DNA of 63,988 nucleotides, the filler included, from Octopus bimaculoides (taxonomy: Eukaryota), in the NCBI RefSeq assembly GCF_001194135.2. It is 3 parts of 2 records of this genome, joined end to end, with 100 filler letters (N's around TTAATTAATTAA, not from the genome) between each part and the next. Parts side by side here need not be neighbours in the genome. Positions count along the whole stretch, not along the records: positions 1 to 31,635 come from NC_068990.1; positions 31,736 to 62,639 come from NC_068990.1; 1 more part is not named here. One strand, given 5' to 3'. The notes under the pieces were generated by a model, which worked only from the letters and a program-made list of their open reading frames with translations, was not told where the DNA came from and searched no databases. The stretch's first letter is position 1. Each line of letters begins with the position of its first letter. Positions 8,720 through 50,176 of the stretch are shown in pieces. Both the position numbers and the translations under genes were made by a program.

Positions 8720-8756
8720 CTTTTACGTTTCGAGCCTAAGCTCTTCAACAGAAAGG
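8720..8756 (-). ncRNA. Minimal type I hammerhead ribozyme variant within a PLE-type repeat (~8650-8830)
   Basis: CCTTT-CTGTTGA-A-GAGC(TTAG)GCTC-GAAAC-GTA-AAAG: stem I CTTT/AAAG, stem II GAGC/GCTC, palindromic ACGT stem III, GUA site. The core has A6U. Confidence 0.6.
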
Positions 8757-8907
8757 AACACAACGAAATAAATGGAGAGAGAATAAAAAAATAGCTTCTG
8801 GAGCTAGCGGTCAATCATGGCCCCATAATTGTAGACATATAAGGCGAGAGTGAGGGGGGAGGGAGAGAGGAAGAAACTGAGACAGACAGACAGACAGACA
8901 GACAGGC

Positions 8908-8943
<36 letters not shown>

Positions 8944-9102
8944 GGCCATATATATAGATAGATGGCCATATATATATATACATATAAACATGTTATCCAT
9001 CTAAATATATGTATGTATGTATGTATGCATATATACATAGATACATACATACATACATACATACACATATAGATATATATATATATATAAATACATGCAT
9101 AC

Positions 9103-9152
<50 letters not shown>

Positions 9153-9172
9153 ATATATATATNNNNNNNNNN

Positions 9173-9241
<69 letters not shown>

Positions 9242-9552
9242 ATATTTACATATATATTATATTCAAATATATACTCAAGCAATCTTCAGACACCTCCACA
9301 CTCACTCGCTCACTCACACACACACACACACACACACATACACTCACATACACGCTCACTGACACACTCGCACCTTCCCACACTCACACACACATCACGG
9401 CAGACATCTTCTAAAGTGTGTGTATATGAAAGTACTTAAATGATTTAATTAAATAGCTGCAAGATTAAATTAATATTAAGGAAATTAGACCTGCTGACAT
9501 TCCCGTTCTGACTCTTGTGTTTCTGAAGCTGCTACACTTACTGTCACTTTAT

Positions 9553-9663
9553 TAGATTTGACATCAGATGGCATCCGACGACACCGTTCTGTTGCTTTAA
9601 TTCCATCACACTCGTATCACAAAATAGATTTGACATCAGATGGCATCCGACGACACCGTTCTG
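9553..9663. repeat. 72-bp minisatellite running into a gap
   Basis: TAGATTTGACATCAGATGGCATCCGACGACACCGTTCTG occurs identically at 9553 and 9625. Confidence 0.85.
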
Positions 9664-10179
9664 NNNNNNNNNNNNNNNNNNNNNNNNNNNNNNNNNNNNN
9701 NNNNNNNNNNNNNNNNNNNNNNNNNNNNNNNNNNNNNNNNNNNNNNNNNNNNNNNNNNNNNNNNNNNNNNNNNNNNNNNNNNNNNNNNNNNNNNNNNNNN
9801 NNNNNNNNNNNNNNNNNNNNNNNNNNNNNNNNNNNNNNNNNNNNNNNNNNNNNNNNNNNNNNNNNNNNNNNNNNNNNNNNNNNNNNNNNNNNNNNNNNNN
9901 NNNNNNNNNNNNNNNNNNNNNNNNNNNNNNNNNNNNNNNNNNNNNNNNNNNNNNNNNNNNNNNNNNNNNNNNNNNNNNNNNNNNNNNNNNNNNNNNNNNN
10001 NNNNNNNNNNNNNNNNNNNNNNNNNNNNNNNNNNNNNNNNNNNNNNNNNNNNNNNAGAGAGAGAGAGAGAAAGACGGAGAGAGAGAGAGAGAAAGACGGA
10101 GAGAGAGAGAGAGAAAGAGGGAGAGAGTGCAAAAAGCAAAATGGTGTAGTAAAAGAGTCTGTGTGTGAGTGTTTGTGTG

Positions 10180-10223
<44 letters not shown>

Positions 10224-10712
10224 TATGTGCAAGTATCAAACGAAAGCATGTGTGTGTGTATGTGCATGTATAGGCATGTATGTGCATGCATGTGTATGTG
10301 TATATGTGTGTTGTGGGTGCAAGAAGAATAGCAAGAGAGAGAGAGAGAGAGAGAAAGAAAGGGAGACAGGGGGGGAAAAATAGAGGTTATGTAAGAAACA
10401 GAAAGACTCATGAAATAAGACAGAGAGAGAGAAAGAGAGAGAAAGAGAGACATTAGGCAAGAATTGGAAAGGGGAGAAAGAATAAAAGTAAAGGAAAGAG
10501 AGAGGAAAAGAGAGAGAGAATGACTGGGGGGGGGGCAGAGGGAGGCAGAAGAGATGTTGTACCTACACTTTTTTATTTTTTTATTTTTTCCCCAGTAACA
10601 GACAATTCTGAAGGAAAGTAATTCAATTGTGTTCCTCTCTAACTTGGTAAGAACAAATTTCAGATATGAACTTCCATATTGAGCTACATATATATACATA
10701 CATATATATGTT

Positions 10713-10744
<32 letters not shown>

Positions 10745-10765
10745 TGTATGTATGTATATACATGC

Positions 10766-10806
<41 letters not shown>

Positions 10807-46308: not shown

Positions 46309-46430
46309 TGACAACCAACTAATTGTCACATATTATATTCATAGATAAATTCCTGTATTTTACATCATATCAAGGTCTCATTCATTCTTTGTTGTCATAT
46401 TATTATTATTAATATATATACATATGTATA

Positions 46431-46643
46431 TTTTTGCGTGTCTGTGTTTGTCCTTCCACCATCACTTGACAACTGATGTTGGTGTGTTTACATCCCCATA
46501 ACTTAGCAGTTCAGCAAAAGCTCCCAATAGAATAAATACTAAGCTTACAAAGAATATGTCCTGGGGTCAATTTGTTTGACTAAAGGTGATGCCCCAGCAT
46601 GGCCACAGTCAAATGACTGAAACAAATACAAGAATAAAAGAAT
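46431..46643 (+). mobile_element. SINE family A 3' half
   Basis: GTGTTTGTCCTTCCACCATC...GGCCACAGTCAAATGACTGAAACAAATACAAGAATAAAAGAAT. Confidence 0.85.
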
Positions 46644-46911
46644 TATAGAAAACCTGAAATATATTAAATGATTTCAAAATATCACTTTTTCATTGACTTC
46701 ATTATTACAACTTATACAAATATTCTAATAACAGTTTGGAGTAGTTTGTTATTTTTGACTTGTGTTGAAAATTCTGTTACTGTGTACCACTCCTTAGTAT
46801 AACATGAAATGTGTGTGTGTGCCACGCAGTGAGACTGAATTCAAGATCACATGGTTAAGAAGCAAGCTTCTTAACTACATAGCTCTGCCTACACCTAAGG
46901 CCTCAACTGTG

Positions 46912-46959
<48 letters not shown>

Positions 46960-46961
<2 letters not shown>

Positions 46962-47410
46962 GGGTGCAGTGAATAAATTGTCGTCTAAATTACTCAAAAC
47001 TGAAAATAACACTGATATCTATCAAAATCACGTAAAAATATCTTGAAATACTAAAGAGTAAATTTATTCAATAAAATTGCCATTGGTTTCAACCACTATC
47101 TCTTGACGACTTCAGAATCTCCTGTAACTGTTCTGGGCGGTCTCCTTGTTTAAGTTGGTGAATGCTGCCATAATCCTTGCCCTCGGTTCATCTTTGGTAT
47201 TACAAGGAGTTTTGTTGGTTTCTCGCTCAACTGCACCCCACACATAATAATCAAGGAGGTTGCTGTCTGATGAGTTAGATGGCCAGACGTTAGGGGTGAT
47301 GTGGTCACAGAAATTGTCTGACAGCCATGACTGGGTTCTCCTGCTTGTGTGGCATGGTGTAGAGTCCTGTTGCCAGACATAGGGTTTTCTAGCAGCCACC
47401 CTCTTTTCCA
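46960..47410 (-). pseudogene. Tc1/mariner DD37D (maT) transposase C-terminal remnant with one TIR
   Basis: QQDSTPCH...WPSNSSDSNLLDYYVWG has 37 residues between the 2nd and 3rd catalytic D. TIR CAGGGTG at 46960. Confidence 0.85.
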
Positions 47411-47820
47411 ACAGGAAACGGTGTTTCCTAGGGCTAAATAGCAGTAACATTCTTCTCTTTCATGAGACTGTCACACTAAGTTGACAACATACCATCACTT
47501 TATCATGCTGCTCCTGTATAAATTTCTCTTGAGAGATTTAGAAATGTATTATTTCTATTTTCGAAATCAGTGAATGTATTTCACTTGAAATATATATGTT
47601 TTCAAAGGTGAATAGGCATTGGCCGCTACCAAACCATGCTACTCCAGACTGACGATGAGCAATGACTCTGAAGCTAGTCTCTGGATGCTGGCTTTGCTGG
47701 ATGGAGGTGCTTATCTCCCCTTTGGAAACATAAGGACACAGGAAACGGTGTTTCTTAGGGCTAAATAGCAGTAGCATTCTTCCCTTTCATGGGACTGTCA
47801 CATTAAGTTGACAACATGCC

Positions 47821-47826
<6 letters not shown>
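47411..47826 (+). mobile_element. Retrozyme-like element: 327-nt monomer with 89-bp terminal redundancy and one hammerhead (47643-47685)
   Basis: Direct repeats 47411-47499 and 47738-47826 (83/89). TCCAGA-CTGACGA-T-GAG(CAATGA)CTC-T-GAAGC-TA-GTC-TCTGGA. Ends in (TA)n. Confidence 0.75.
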
Positions 47827-47857
<31 letters not shown>

Positions 47858-48261
47858 CACATCAATAAAATAAAAGTAAAATAAAAAATAAATTTTTAAT
47901 TACAATTTTTACATATTTCAAACCTGATAACTATTTAAAATAATTATAGCTAATATAGAAGTATAATATAATGCAATGGAATTTAAATAAATGTTATTAT
48001 AAGATGAATTACTTGCAATATACTTTTAGATTAATAAACCTGTAATATTATATTCCTTAATAGAATATTGATATTAAATAAATGATTTAATCAATTTTCT
48101 AAATAATAATAGTATACATACACTTATGCATGTATATACATATATATATATATACACACACACATACATACATGCATACATCTATATATATACAAATACA
48201 CACACACATACACGCACACACATATATATATATAAGTGTAGTAAATTGATTAGTGCGGTCT

Positions 48262-49085
48262 TTGTAATATGGAAAGATGGCTCATCTTGAAAAGTTCCTT
48301 GGACCCTGCTACATGTCTAAATTCAAGAACTGAACTTTTTGCCCCCACCCCTCAAGATCATGGCTAGAATCCACATTTTTACTATGTTCCTCCACAAGCT
48401 TCTCATATGTCTTAACTTTAAAAAAATTTTTATATATATTTTGAAATTTTTTTCTTCTTTTTGTCCTTTTTAATTGTGTGAATGTGTAACGTGCATGAGT
48501 ATATGTATATGTATGTATATATTTTATAGGTATATGTGTGTGCATGTGTATATGTATATGAGTATAAGACTGTGTCCAGTGCATAAGTGCGACTTTCATG
48601 CACATGTTCCCTGCATTTAAATGGATATGCATATGTTTGAATGGTTGTGGGTAGGAAGATGTATATGCATATCGTTTTGACTGTACCTTCTAGCATGTAA
48701 GGCTGCCTGTTAAGGGTTGTGTCTTCTCTGTTTAAATGTACACTAATTTAATATGGAAAATATGTTGTCTATTGACTTTTTATACATGCTAGGCCACTAG
48801 TAGTGAAATTTCTAAAATTTCACTACCCTATATTTTATGAATATGATTTTAATAAATTTTGGAAGTTAATTCAGCATTTTTTCATTTGCTGCCAACTGAA
48901 ACCATGCTTGCGCAGTAAATATTAAAAATTATAATATGTAATGAATAACATGTGCATAAGCGCACCAATCCATACATGCGCCTATATGTATATACTCATC
49001 CACCCTCGCTTGAAACACGTATGCGGGTATATGTATATATATGTGTGTGTGTGTATGTATGTATGTGTGTGTGTGTATGTGTATA

Positions 49086-49127
<42 letters not shown>

Positions 49128-49515
49128 GCAAATGTGTGGATGAGCATGTGTGTGTTTCAAGCGAGGGTGAATGAGTATATACATATAGGCGCATGTACGG
49201 ATTGGTGTGCTTACGCGAATACTCTGGACTTTTTTACTCCCTTACCTTTGCTCTCTCCCCTTACTTAGCGGTCATTCTAATAGCTCTTTTGTCTTAATAA
49301 CGGTCAACCACACAGTAATTTCCCTTTGTTTAATGGTCATTTTCATAGGAATTTTCAGTGGCCAGATAACTGAAGAGATGGCGGCGTGGGTTTCTGCTCC
49401 AGCATCCGAAACTCGGAGTTTTATCAGGGCTACCGAATAATTGTCACATATTTTTACTGATAAATTCCTCTATTTACATAATATCGAGGTCTCTTTCTTT
49501 TGTTGTCCTTTCTAT

Positions 49516-49551
<36 letters not shown>

Positions 49552-50176
49552 GTGTGTGTGGGGGAGTGTGAATGTATGCCTGTATATATATATATATACA
49601 CGTATATTTATATGCGTAAATGTCTAAATATATAAGTATTATGTTACATGTATGCATGCAAACACCTATGTGTATATGAGGGTGAAGTTGCATACACACA
49701 CACGCAGACACATATATATATATATACACACACATACACACGTGTGTGTGTGGATATGTATGAGTATTTACATATACATATATGTTTGTGTGTGTATACA
49801 TATACATATATGTGTGTGTATACATATATGTTTGTGTGTCTATGTGCATGTATGTATACATGTTTGTGTGAGTGAGTACGCATATAGATGTTATGAATGC
49901 AGGAGGTTTATGTCTATGTATTGTGAGAATATGGTTGAGTGTATTTTTTTTATTTTTTTTATTTTTCTACCTATTAGAGTAACTTCCCTTCTATGCAACA
50001 GTTTTGTATAGCATCTGTTGCCATTAATAGCCAACGAGAATGCATCGCAGCCCTTCGCTCTGACATTTGAAACTCCGAGTACTATAATGACAACTTATTG
50101 TTTGTTCTAGATTATAACATATATAAATAATCCTCTATTTATCTAATATCAAGGTCTCGTTCTTTTGTTGTTAATT

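What the first reader, a model, noticed from the sequence alone, without database searches (positions are those of the whole stretch)
8720..50087. About nine hammerhead motifs from about six families in ~41 kb
Seen: motifs at 8720, 13409 (weak), 30026, 31507, 38680, 46246, 47643, 49359 and 50023, with different stem III palindromes (ACGU, ACAAUUGU, ACUCGGAGU, ACUAGU-like). Inference: if typical of the genome, HHR-bearing PLE derivatives are a major, under-annotated repeat class here. Family-specific palindromes could restrict dimer cleavage to like partners. One window cannot establish genome-wide density.
Basis: partly seen in the sequence, partly recalled or inferred. Interest (0 to 1): 0.75.

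Follow-up and report, generated by a model that had tools for sequence, protein, structure and literature searches.

The report
Penelope hammerhead tails, one LINE-targeted retrozyme
The motifs are real, mostly decayed hammerhead-ribozyme sequences at the tail ends of several families of jumping genes, with an estimated tens of thousands of such copies in this genome, an arrangement already known from many animals; one family also carries a likely small-RNA promoter at whose predicted start another jumping gene sits and likely hitches a ride.

Summary
All nine motifs are type I hammerhead-like sequences, and a tenth (13254, minus strand) was missed. They are not in 41 contiguous kb: the window joins two stretches 23.6 Mb apart. 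The nine form five families, and five of the nine are one family. Families A, B and C lie directly downstream of Penelope-like (PLE) reading frames; stretch 2 holds a near-complete decayed PLE whose two arms likely supply two of the motifs. A 1.007-Mb systematic sample gave 16 intact-core motifs (shuffles at most 4) and 63 recognisable copies, about 1.2 x 10^5 genome-wide; the window is roughly 2.7-fold richer than average. This is the pattern Cervera and de la Pena (2014) described. Palindromes alone are not family-specific (B and C share ACGU; E and F share ACAAUUGU); stem I would separate them. Cleavage is untested. Family D is a retrozyme-like ~330-nt unit with a U2-type promoter motif; an L1/Tx1-like LINE ends at its predicted start in 20 of 25 loci and often seems to travel as cargo. 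The scan noted hammerhead PLE ends in this genome, and such LINE targeting in other genomes, before.

The parts
8638..8821 (-). Family B PLE 3' end; hammerhead at 8720-8755 with core CUGUUGA (U at position 6), 4-bp stem II, stem III ACGU
   Evidence: U6 in 14 of 17 readable sample copies; PLE-like EN or RT remnants upstream in 2 of 20 loci
13158..13258 (-).
   Evidence: dispersed family, 448 first-look candidates, 15 loci aligned
13409..13527 (-). Family E hammerhead: core at 13523 (damaged in this copy), 92-nt stem II region, stem III ACAAUUGU
29843..29875 (-). Short inverted arm of the family C copy
29874..30145 (+). Family C PLE 3' end: tRNA-like segment (about 29874-29947), (AAT)n, hammerhead at about 30028-30069 (stem III partly deleted in this subfamily; intact copies have ACGU), 35-nt tail
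   Evidence: follows a GIY-YIG-like frame end in 18 of 19 loci; ARAGORN calls no tRNA in 10 of 10 loci
31382..31600 (-). Family A 3' end; intact hammerhead at 31514-31574, stem III ACUCGGAGU
38649..39733 (-). Inverted 5'-truncated arm of a family A PLE; hammerhead remnant with core at 38723, stem III deleted
39780..44025 (+). Decayed PLE reading frame (RT motifs, thumb, C-terminal GIY-YIG-like domain), interrupted by a LINE at about 40463-42434
45565..46410 (+). 3' untranslated end of the same PLE; hammerhead at 46247-46307 (G12 changed to A)
47411..47830 (+). Family D, 1.3 units of a 327-nt repeat; U2-type promoter-like motif at 47566-47578; hammerhead at 47644-47684 (stem III ACUAGU in the family, first base changed here)
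48948..49551 (+). Young family A copy with a short inverted arm (48948-49021); intact hammerhead at 49365-49425; ends in (TA)n
49970..50243 (+). Old family A copy; degenerate hammerhead at 50026-50086

Best explanation
The motifs are type I hammerhead sequences with loop-less, palindromic stem III that sit in the 3' ends of several unrelated Penelope-like retroelement families and one short non-coding repeat, and most copies are decayed stumps likely left by 5'-truncated reverse transcription. Shown: the motifs, the families, fixed 3' ends with ragged 5' ends, inverted arms, and the physical link of A, B and C to PLE-type frames. Inferred: a PLE RT/GIY-YIG protein copies the RNA from its 3' end and usually falls off early, so the ribozyme-bearing tail is amplified far more than the gene. 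In the parent element two hammerheads on a tandem transcript would pair through stem III and stem I and cut the RNA. Lone copies would lack a partner and are predicted to be mostly uncut and inert. Like-with-like pairing would follow from stem I and stem III together, probably as a by-product of drift rather than a selected code. Family D is likely a non-autonomous, retrozyme-like client of the same machinery with its own snRNA-type promoter.
For: Descriptor hits exceed shuffles in the window and in 120 systematically spaced 10-kb stretches: 16, 9 and 29 hits against shuffle maxima of 4, 2 and 13 in 92 shuffles. With stem III loops up to 20 nt allowed, 10 of 10 strict hits have loops of 2 nt or less; 62 shuffles average 0.05 such hits. 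Family A hammerhead lies downstream of the endonuclease on the same strand in 14 of 20 loci found by the endonuclease, one being the query's own. L236 has a 545-aa open frame with RT and C-terminal GIY-YIG-like motifs, and 454 homologues were found, many about 700 aa. Family C follows a GIY-YIG-like frame end in 18 of 19 loci; B in 2 of 20. Fixed 3' ends and ragged 5' ends. Microsatellite right after the end in 27 of 30 A and 14 of 20 B loci; inverted arms in 16 of 20 C, 9 of 20 D, 6 of 30 A, 5 of 15 E and 2 of 20 B loci. These are the PLE features stated in Craig et al., and solo minimal hammerheads in many families per genome are reported in PMC4209133.
Against: Cleavage was not shown. RNA reads run across the predicted cut sites of B and D with no pile-up of ends, though fragmented, apparently unstranded libraries cannot show ends well. 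Covariation within family A is weak (score reached by 45 of 500 shuffles), and the isolated motifs fold no better than shuffles (z from -1.9 to +0.4). Pfam finds nothing on the genome's own PLE peptides and PDB nothing, so the PLE label rests on motif reading and insertion anatomy; clade names are recalled, with no tree. E and F each have only one PLE-like fragment upstream, and D has none in 20 loci. Family B carries U at position 6; changes at that position lower activity (PMC3088659, PMC7151607, both for A6C).
Confidence: 0.88

Rival explanations
1. Chance matches to a short motif in AT-rich repeat DNA.
For: The loosest one-mismatch descriptor is not above shuffles in the window (8 vs 4.9). 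Folding z-scores are unremarkable.
Against: Strict hits far exceed shuffles. Each motif belongs to a dispersed family whose majority keeps core and stems. Reversed-sequence controls give 0 profile hits.
Confidence: 0.01
2. All families are independent non-LTR retrozymes that spread through RNA circles, with no coding parent.
For: Family D is a 327-345-nt unit with copies longer than one unit and no linked frame. Mussel and axolotl retrozymes have similar sizes (PMC7229834).
Against: A, B and C continue upstream into PLE-type frames. No multi-unit array was seen in 20 D loci. D reads are few (351-409 per 11.5-12.9 million records).
Confidence: 0.05
3. Stem III palindromes are a selected identity code that keeps co-resident families from cutting each other.
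For: 20 family representatives show 17 different stem III sequences, and 0 of 190 pairs match in both stem III and stem I.
Against: The two commonest families (B, C) share ACGU; E and F share ACAAUUGU; two others share ACAGCUGU. Random divergence with compensatory change would give the same pattern. Long palindromic stems III are already noted in PMC3088659 (Fig. S8 legend). No test of selection was done.
Confidence: 0.1

Closest known systems
Minimal type I hammerheads of metazoan Penelope-like elements (Cervera and de la Pena 2014, PMC4209133; parts 1-2 of 4 read)
   Same: Type I topology, 4-6-bp helix I, extra base after A9, palindromic stem III, many families per genome, mostly lone copies from truncated PLEs, opposite-strand pairs a few hundred bases apart.
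   Different: Higher estimated numbers (about 2-3 x 10^4 intact-core motifs against 2,000-9,000 there), palindromes up to 8-10 nt, stem II regions up to 92 nt, a family-wide U at core position 6 in B, and a tRNA-like segment in the 3' end of C.
Canonical EN+ PLE clades Nematis, Neptune, Penelope/Poseidon (Craig et al. 2021, PMC8557442 and preprint; passages read)
   Same: RT with C-terminal GIY-YIG, inverted 5'-truncated arm, 30-40-bp tail, microsatellite targets. A and B have cysteine motifs before the endonuclease and C has none, as that paper describes for Nematis/Neptune against Penelope/Poseidon.
   Different: Clade labels (A Nematis-like, B Neptune-like, C Penelope/Poseidon-like) are recalled from motif patterns; no tree was built.
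Metazoan non-LTR retrozymes, including newt satellite 2 (PMC7229834, passages; snRNA-type promoter of satellite 2 as cited in PMC2220036, passage)
   Same: For family D: about 330-nt non-coding unit, type I hammerhead, U.U opposition at the base of stem II as in HHR_Amex2, internal snRNA-type promoter motif.
   Different: Dispersed copies of 1-1.3 units with PLE-type inverted arms rather than long tandem arrays; circles not shown.
Target-specific Tx1-clade LINEs (Tx1 in Tx1D, Keno in U2 genes, Tx1-Mar; Kojima 2015, PMC4494074, passages)
   Same: APE/RT LINE with zinc-knuckle ORF1 inserted at one fixed position of a repeat, with a target duplication.
   Different: The target is a hammerhead repeat, at its predicted transcription start, and many copies appear to have been moved as cargo with the repeat's tail.

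Membership tests
PLE-associated minimal type I hammerhead | Core CUGANGA ... GAAA ... UH in type I order | tested here: met
   Family majorities of A, C, D and F, and several E copies; 3 of 10 window copies intact
PLE-associated minimal type I hammerhead | A at core position 6 (family B) | tested here: not met
   U in 14, C in 2, A in 1 of 17 readable copies among 24 profile hits; B is a core variant
PLE-associated minimal type I hammerhead | Short helix I and palindromic stem III with little or no loop | tested here: met
   10 of 10 strict sample hits have loops of 2 nt or less although up to 20 were allowed; helix I 3-6 bp in 20 representatives
PLE-associated minimal type I hammerhead | Unpaired base after A9 and G10.1-C11.1 pair | tested here: inconclusive
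   Present in B and C; D has G-C flanked by U.U; A has the extra base before G12; F has C-G
PLE-associated minimal type I hammerhead | Compensatory changes in the stems | tested here: inconclusive
   Family A: 91.6% of cells paired, 4 of 23 pairs with double changes, not above shuffles; across families the stems differ wholly yet pair
PLE-associated minimal type I hammerhead | Self-cleavage as dimers | not testable with these tools
   No assay; RNA reads show no cut ends but cannot exclude them
EN+ Penelope-like element | Single frame with RT and C-terminal GIY-YIG upstream of the hammerhead | tested here: met
   A; C: endonuclease end; B: fragments. By motif reading; Pfam gave no hit
EN+ Penelope-like element | Frame link for families E and F | tested here: inconclusive
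   One PLE-like fragment upstream each (L102/L093; L300)
EN+ Penelope-like element | Fixed 3' end, 5' truncation, inverted arm, tail, microsatellite target | tested here: met
EN+ Penelope-like element | Phylogenetic placement in a named clade | not tested
   No named reference proteins in hand; labels recalled
Metazoan non-LTR retrozyme (family D) | 150-450-nt non-coding unit with a type I hammerhead | tested here: met
   Period 327 in the window; no PLE frame upstream in 20 loci with 1.5-kb flanks
Metazoan non-LTR retrozyme (family D) | Tandem copies with two or more ribozymes | tested here: inconclusive
   Copies exceed one unit, but no clean multi-unit array in 20 loci; the assembly has many gaps
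Metazoan non-LTR retrozyme (family D) | Abundant monomeric linear and circular RNA | not testable with these tools
   Few reads; backward joints also follow from the genomic permutation
Target-specific Tx1-clade LINE | APE, RT, zinc-binding end and zinc-knuckle ORF1 | tested here: met
   PF03372 (just under cut-off), PF00078, PF13966 in L296; PF00098 in L297; best PDB match human LINE-1 ORF2p
Target-specific Tx1-clade LINE | Same flanking sequence at a fixed position in more than 20% of copies, with target duplication | tested here: met
   20 of 25 3' ends, one being the query; 16-nt duplication in L296. Many of these are probably not independent insertions
Target-specific Tx1-clade LINE | Placement in Tx1 rather than L1 by RT phylogeny | not tested
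   No tree built

The most novel reading that the evidence does not exclude
Family D is the middle tier of a three-level parasitism. It carries a U2-type promoter just ahead of its hammerhead and is moved by a PLE enzyme. A Tx1-like LINE inserts exactly at D's transcription start and is transcribed from D's promoter. Because the lone hammerhead behind it often stays uncut, the LINE is then carried to new sites as cargo of D's tail by the PLE machinery, without its own target.
Probability: 0.5. Interest if true: 0.62.

Novelty: new member of a known kind. Interest (0 to 1): 0.4.

Why it matters
The main finding extends a known pattern to one more animal genome and puts a number on it: an estimated 2-3 x 10^4 intact-core and about 10^5 recognisable hammerhead motifs, in at least 20 families with distinct stems. 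That panel makes two open questions testable: whether PLE hammerheads cut as dimers in a partner-specific way (B/C and E/F are natural pairs with the same palindrome and different stem I), and whether U at core position 6 is tolerated. The family D / LINE arrangement, if true, would show a LINE using a ribozyme repeat both as promoter and as vehicle, and the cargo copies would be genomic evidence that lone hammerheads often go uncut in vivo.

Tried and rejected
Rfam scan: only microsatellite-driven miRNA matches among the 150 shown. Pfam on PLE peptides and PDB search: nothing useful. ARAGORN on family C: 0 genes in 10 loci. I first read C as a free tRNA-headed SINE; rejected as the primary description because the tRNA-like segment follows the stop of a PLE-like frame. 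A separate Pol III-driven derivative is not excluded: 5' ends in the sample do not settle it. Promoter-like motif scan: only D scores (16.1 in 14 of 18 copies); A, B, C, E and F do not (best 9.0). Run search: no RNA holder listed. Three raw RNA runs of the same species label were laid on D and B: reads on both strands, no pile-up at the cut sites; not decisive. Monomer folding and within-family covariation gave no signal. I first read the 20 LINE ends as 20 target-site insertions; weakened. Lunse et al. (RNA Biol, title seen in a reference list) could not be read; it may already cover the core variants and partner specificity. Literature searches: 'hammerhead ribozyme'+'octopus', 'Tx1'+'hammerhead' and 'retrozyme'+'promoter'+'snRNA'+'LINE' listed no paper on these families or on a LINE targeting a hammerhead repeat; the library lacks most subscription papers and Repbase. 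No supplements were opened; those of PMC4209133, PMC7229834, PMC8557442 and PMC13282606 may list octopus families.
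Full report
Observation. The window is a pack of three stretches. The nine motifs lie on two of them, at G000 C10 about 28.76 Mb and 52.43 Mb, so the '41 kb' is not one interval. All nine positions hold type I hammerhead-like sequence. With one core mismatch, stems I and II of at least 4 bp and a short stem III loop, the window has 4 hits against a mean of 0.18 in 170 local dinucleotide shuffles; the loosest one-mismatch setting is not significant (8 vs 4.9, 20 of 170). Self-comparison and alignment put 31507, 38680, 46246, 49359 and 50023 in one family, A. 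The others are B (8720), C (30026), D (47643) and E (13409). E is not weak in kind: its core lies at 13523, 92 nt before the GAAA. A tenth motif with an intact core and a 74-nt stem II region, family F at 13158-13258 on the minus strand, was missed. Only 31507, 49359 and 13254 match the consensus core with all stems; 8720 has a family-wide change; the other six are damaged copies.

Families. Each is dispersed: first-look candidates in G000 were 3205 (A), 3287 (B), 2122 (C), 1609 (D), 72 (E) and 448 (F), of which 40 were scored each time; these are lower bounds, not copy numbers. Copies share a fixed 3' end and have ragged 5' ends. A microsatellite follows the end in 27 of 30 A and 14 of 20 B loci but in only 3 of 20 C, 3 of 20 D and 4 of 15 E loci. 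An inverted arm lies upstream in 16 of 20 C, 9 of 20 D, 6 of 30 A, 5 of 15 E and 2 of 20 B loci. C shows a 35-nt tail that most inverted arms lack. Craig et al. list these as PLE insertion features (passages).

Link to coding elements. Long A copies run upstream into a frame with a C-terminal GIY-YIG-like domain. Searching G000 with that domain, 14 of 20 fetched loci (one the query's own) have the A hammerhead downstream on the same strand. One has a 545-aa open frame with RT motifs and 454 homologues, many about 700 aa. The window itself holds a decayed element of this family: frame at about 39780-44025, split by a LINE at about 40463-42434, 3' end at 45565-46410, and an inverted arm at 38649-39733. 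So motifs 38680 and 46246 are likely one insertion. Family C follows the end of a different GIY-YIG-like frame in 18 of 19 loci; a tRNA-like segment (A and B boxes judged by eye from recalled consensus; ARAGORN negative) and an (AAT)n tract lie between the stop and the hammerhead. B has endonuclease or RT remnants upstream in 2 of 20 loci. E and F have one PLE-like fragment upstream each, and D none in 20 loci. Pfam and PDB did not name these proteins; the labels Nematis-like (A), Neptune-like (B) and Penelope/Poseidon-like (C) are recalled from motif patterns.

Genome-wide density. I took 120 stretches of 10 kb at fixed positions on contigs C1-C26 (1,006,528 non-N bases). Three descriptors gave 16, 9 and 29 hits against maxima of 4, 2 and 13 in 92 shuffles. 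A stricter one that allows stem III loops up to 20 nt gave 10 hits, all with loops of 2 nt or less, against 0.05 in 62 shuffles, so the palindromic stem III is a property of the data. Profiles and representatives together find 63 copies in 43 of 120 stretches: B 20, C 17, others 26; reversed controls for the six profiles give 0. Several of the 26 are single descriptor hits finding themselves, so a few may be false, while undiscovered decayed families are missed. Extrapolated to about 1.97 Gb of non-N sequence: 123,000 (Poisson 95% range 95,000-157,000) recognisable copies and 20,000-31,000 with intact cores. The window has 10 where 3.7 are expected (P = 0.005, but the window was chosen for this); A and F had no core-spanning copy in the sample and D only one distant relative. 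At a few hundred bases each, these ends would be about 1-3% of the genome (my estimate, not measured).

Partner specificity. In the dimer model (PMC4209133) each active site would take its stem I 5' arm and core from one molecule and the cut strand from the other (my inference from that model), so both stem III and stem I must match. Among 20 real representatives, 4 of 190 pairs have fully compatible stem III (B/C, E/F and two others), and none of the four has 3 or more stem I pairs. The palindrome alone is therefore not a family code; the two stems together would be. Nothing here shows selection. Family B has U at core position 6 in 14 of 17 readable copies; A6C lowers activity in Mg (PMC7151607, PMC3088659; passages), so B may be weak or dead. 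RNA reads from three runs cross the predicted cuts of B and D without a pile-up of ends, which these libraries cannot be expected to show.

Family D and a LINE. D is a 327-345-nt unit present as 1-1.3 units. Seven of 15 fetched U2 loci share a 13-nt motif 58-60 nt before the gene start. D has a match scoring 16.1 in 14 of 18 copies, 81-84 nt before the core; 7 of 2.0 million sample positions reach 16. That predicts a start 22-25 nt before the core. I tested this after reading earlier scan notes. An snRNA-type promoter is known for newt satellite 2 (cited in PMC2220036). In 3 of 20 D loci an L1/Tx1-like LINE begins at that point; L296 has D on both sides with a 16-nt duplication. Of 25 loci found with the LINE's 3' end, 20 (one the query) continue straight into D about 21 nt before the core, 17 of them with the hammerhead; 2 continue into a related repeat, 1 into a gap, and 2 matches stop short of the end. 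Against a simple targeting reading: among 13 of these loci whose 5' limit is in view, only 2 have D upstream (limits judged by BLAST to one reference copy, so approximate). Two extended loci show inverted arms that also end in the D tail (L354, L355), and L355 starts within a few bases of the LINE's 5' end with no D before it. This fits a transcript from D's start through LINE and uncut hammerhead to D's end, copied by the enzyme that moves D. 3' transduction by the LINE itself, or later rearrangement, is not excluded.

Comparison and verdict. Cervera and de la Pena 2014 report thousands of minimal hammerheads per metazoan genome, in many families, mostly lone and tied to truncated PLEs, with palindromic stem III. 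The 2020 paper gives more than 6000 motifs in 16 families in a coral and up to 120,000 retrozymes in axolotl (passages). A 2026 Octopus vulgaris annotation lists PLEs and L1-Tx1 and has no hit for ribozyme or hammerhead in its main text (passages). Earlier notes of this scan describe hammerhead PLE ends and retrozyme units elsewhere in this genome and LINEs at retrozyme start sites in other genomes. The finding is a new member of a known kind. The density estimate, the natural test pairs and the D/LINE cargo pattern are what it adds. Interest 0.4.

Noticed in passing
L296:899-9720; L314-L338; L354-L357: An L1/Tx1-like LINE ends at one fixed point of family D, about 21 nt before the hammerhead core and at the predicted transcription start; many 5'-truncated copies lack D upstream and look like cargo of D's tail.
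   Followed up: partly
L338, L335, L126:2680-2811: A diverged subfamily of the same LINE ends at the equivalent point of a related hammerhead repeat; the relative in L126 also has a promoter-like motif (score 11.2).
   Followed up: partly
window 29874-29947; L277-L295: A tRNA-like segment with apparent A and B boxes sits right after the stop codon of the family C PLE frame; many copies start near it, so a Pol III-driven derivative is possible.
   Followed up: partly
window 30060-30070; L051-L070: A subfamily of C that lacks part of stem III and the cut site was itself amplified (20 of 20 nearest copies share the deletion), so an intact ribozyme was not needed for spread.
   Followed up: no
L106-L225 and flanks: At least 14 further hammerhead types with other palindromes and stem II regions up to about 60 nt; most seen once or twice.
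   Followed up: partly
window 34699-37508, 40463-42434, 50383-51296, 54170-56998: Several decayed copies of one LINE family (RTE-like by recall), one inserted into the PLE frame.
   Followed up: no
window 44030-45560: A 1.5-kb insert between the PLE frame end and its 3' end, containing an inverted repeat (44588-44618 / 44749-44779) around degenerate CCCTAA-like repeats.
   Followed up: no
window 8454-8649, 11873-12101, 13645-14036, 22787-23015, 24738-25007, 38433-38660: Many copies of a very common SINE-like repeat.
   Followed up: no
window 21115-21602, 28828-28990, 3379-3508, 58835-59060: Fold-back repeats, probably MITEs or inverted PLE arms.
   Followed up: no
L339-L346: Seven U2 loci share a 13-nt upstream motif 58-60 nt before the start; the other 8 of 15 lack it and look like retrocopies.
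   Followed up: partly
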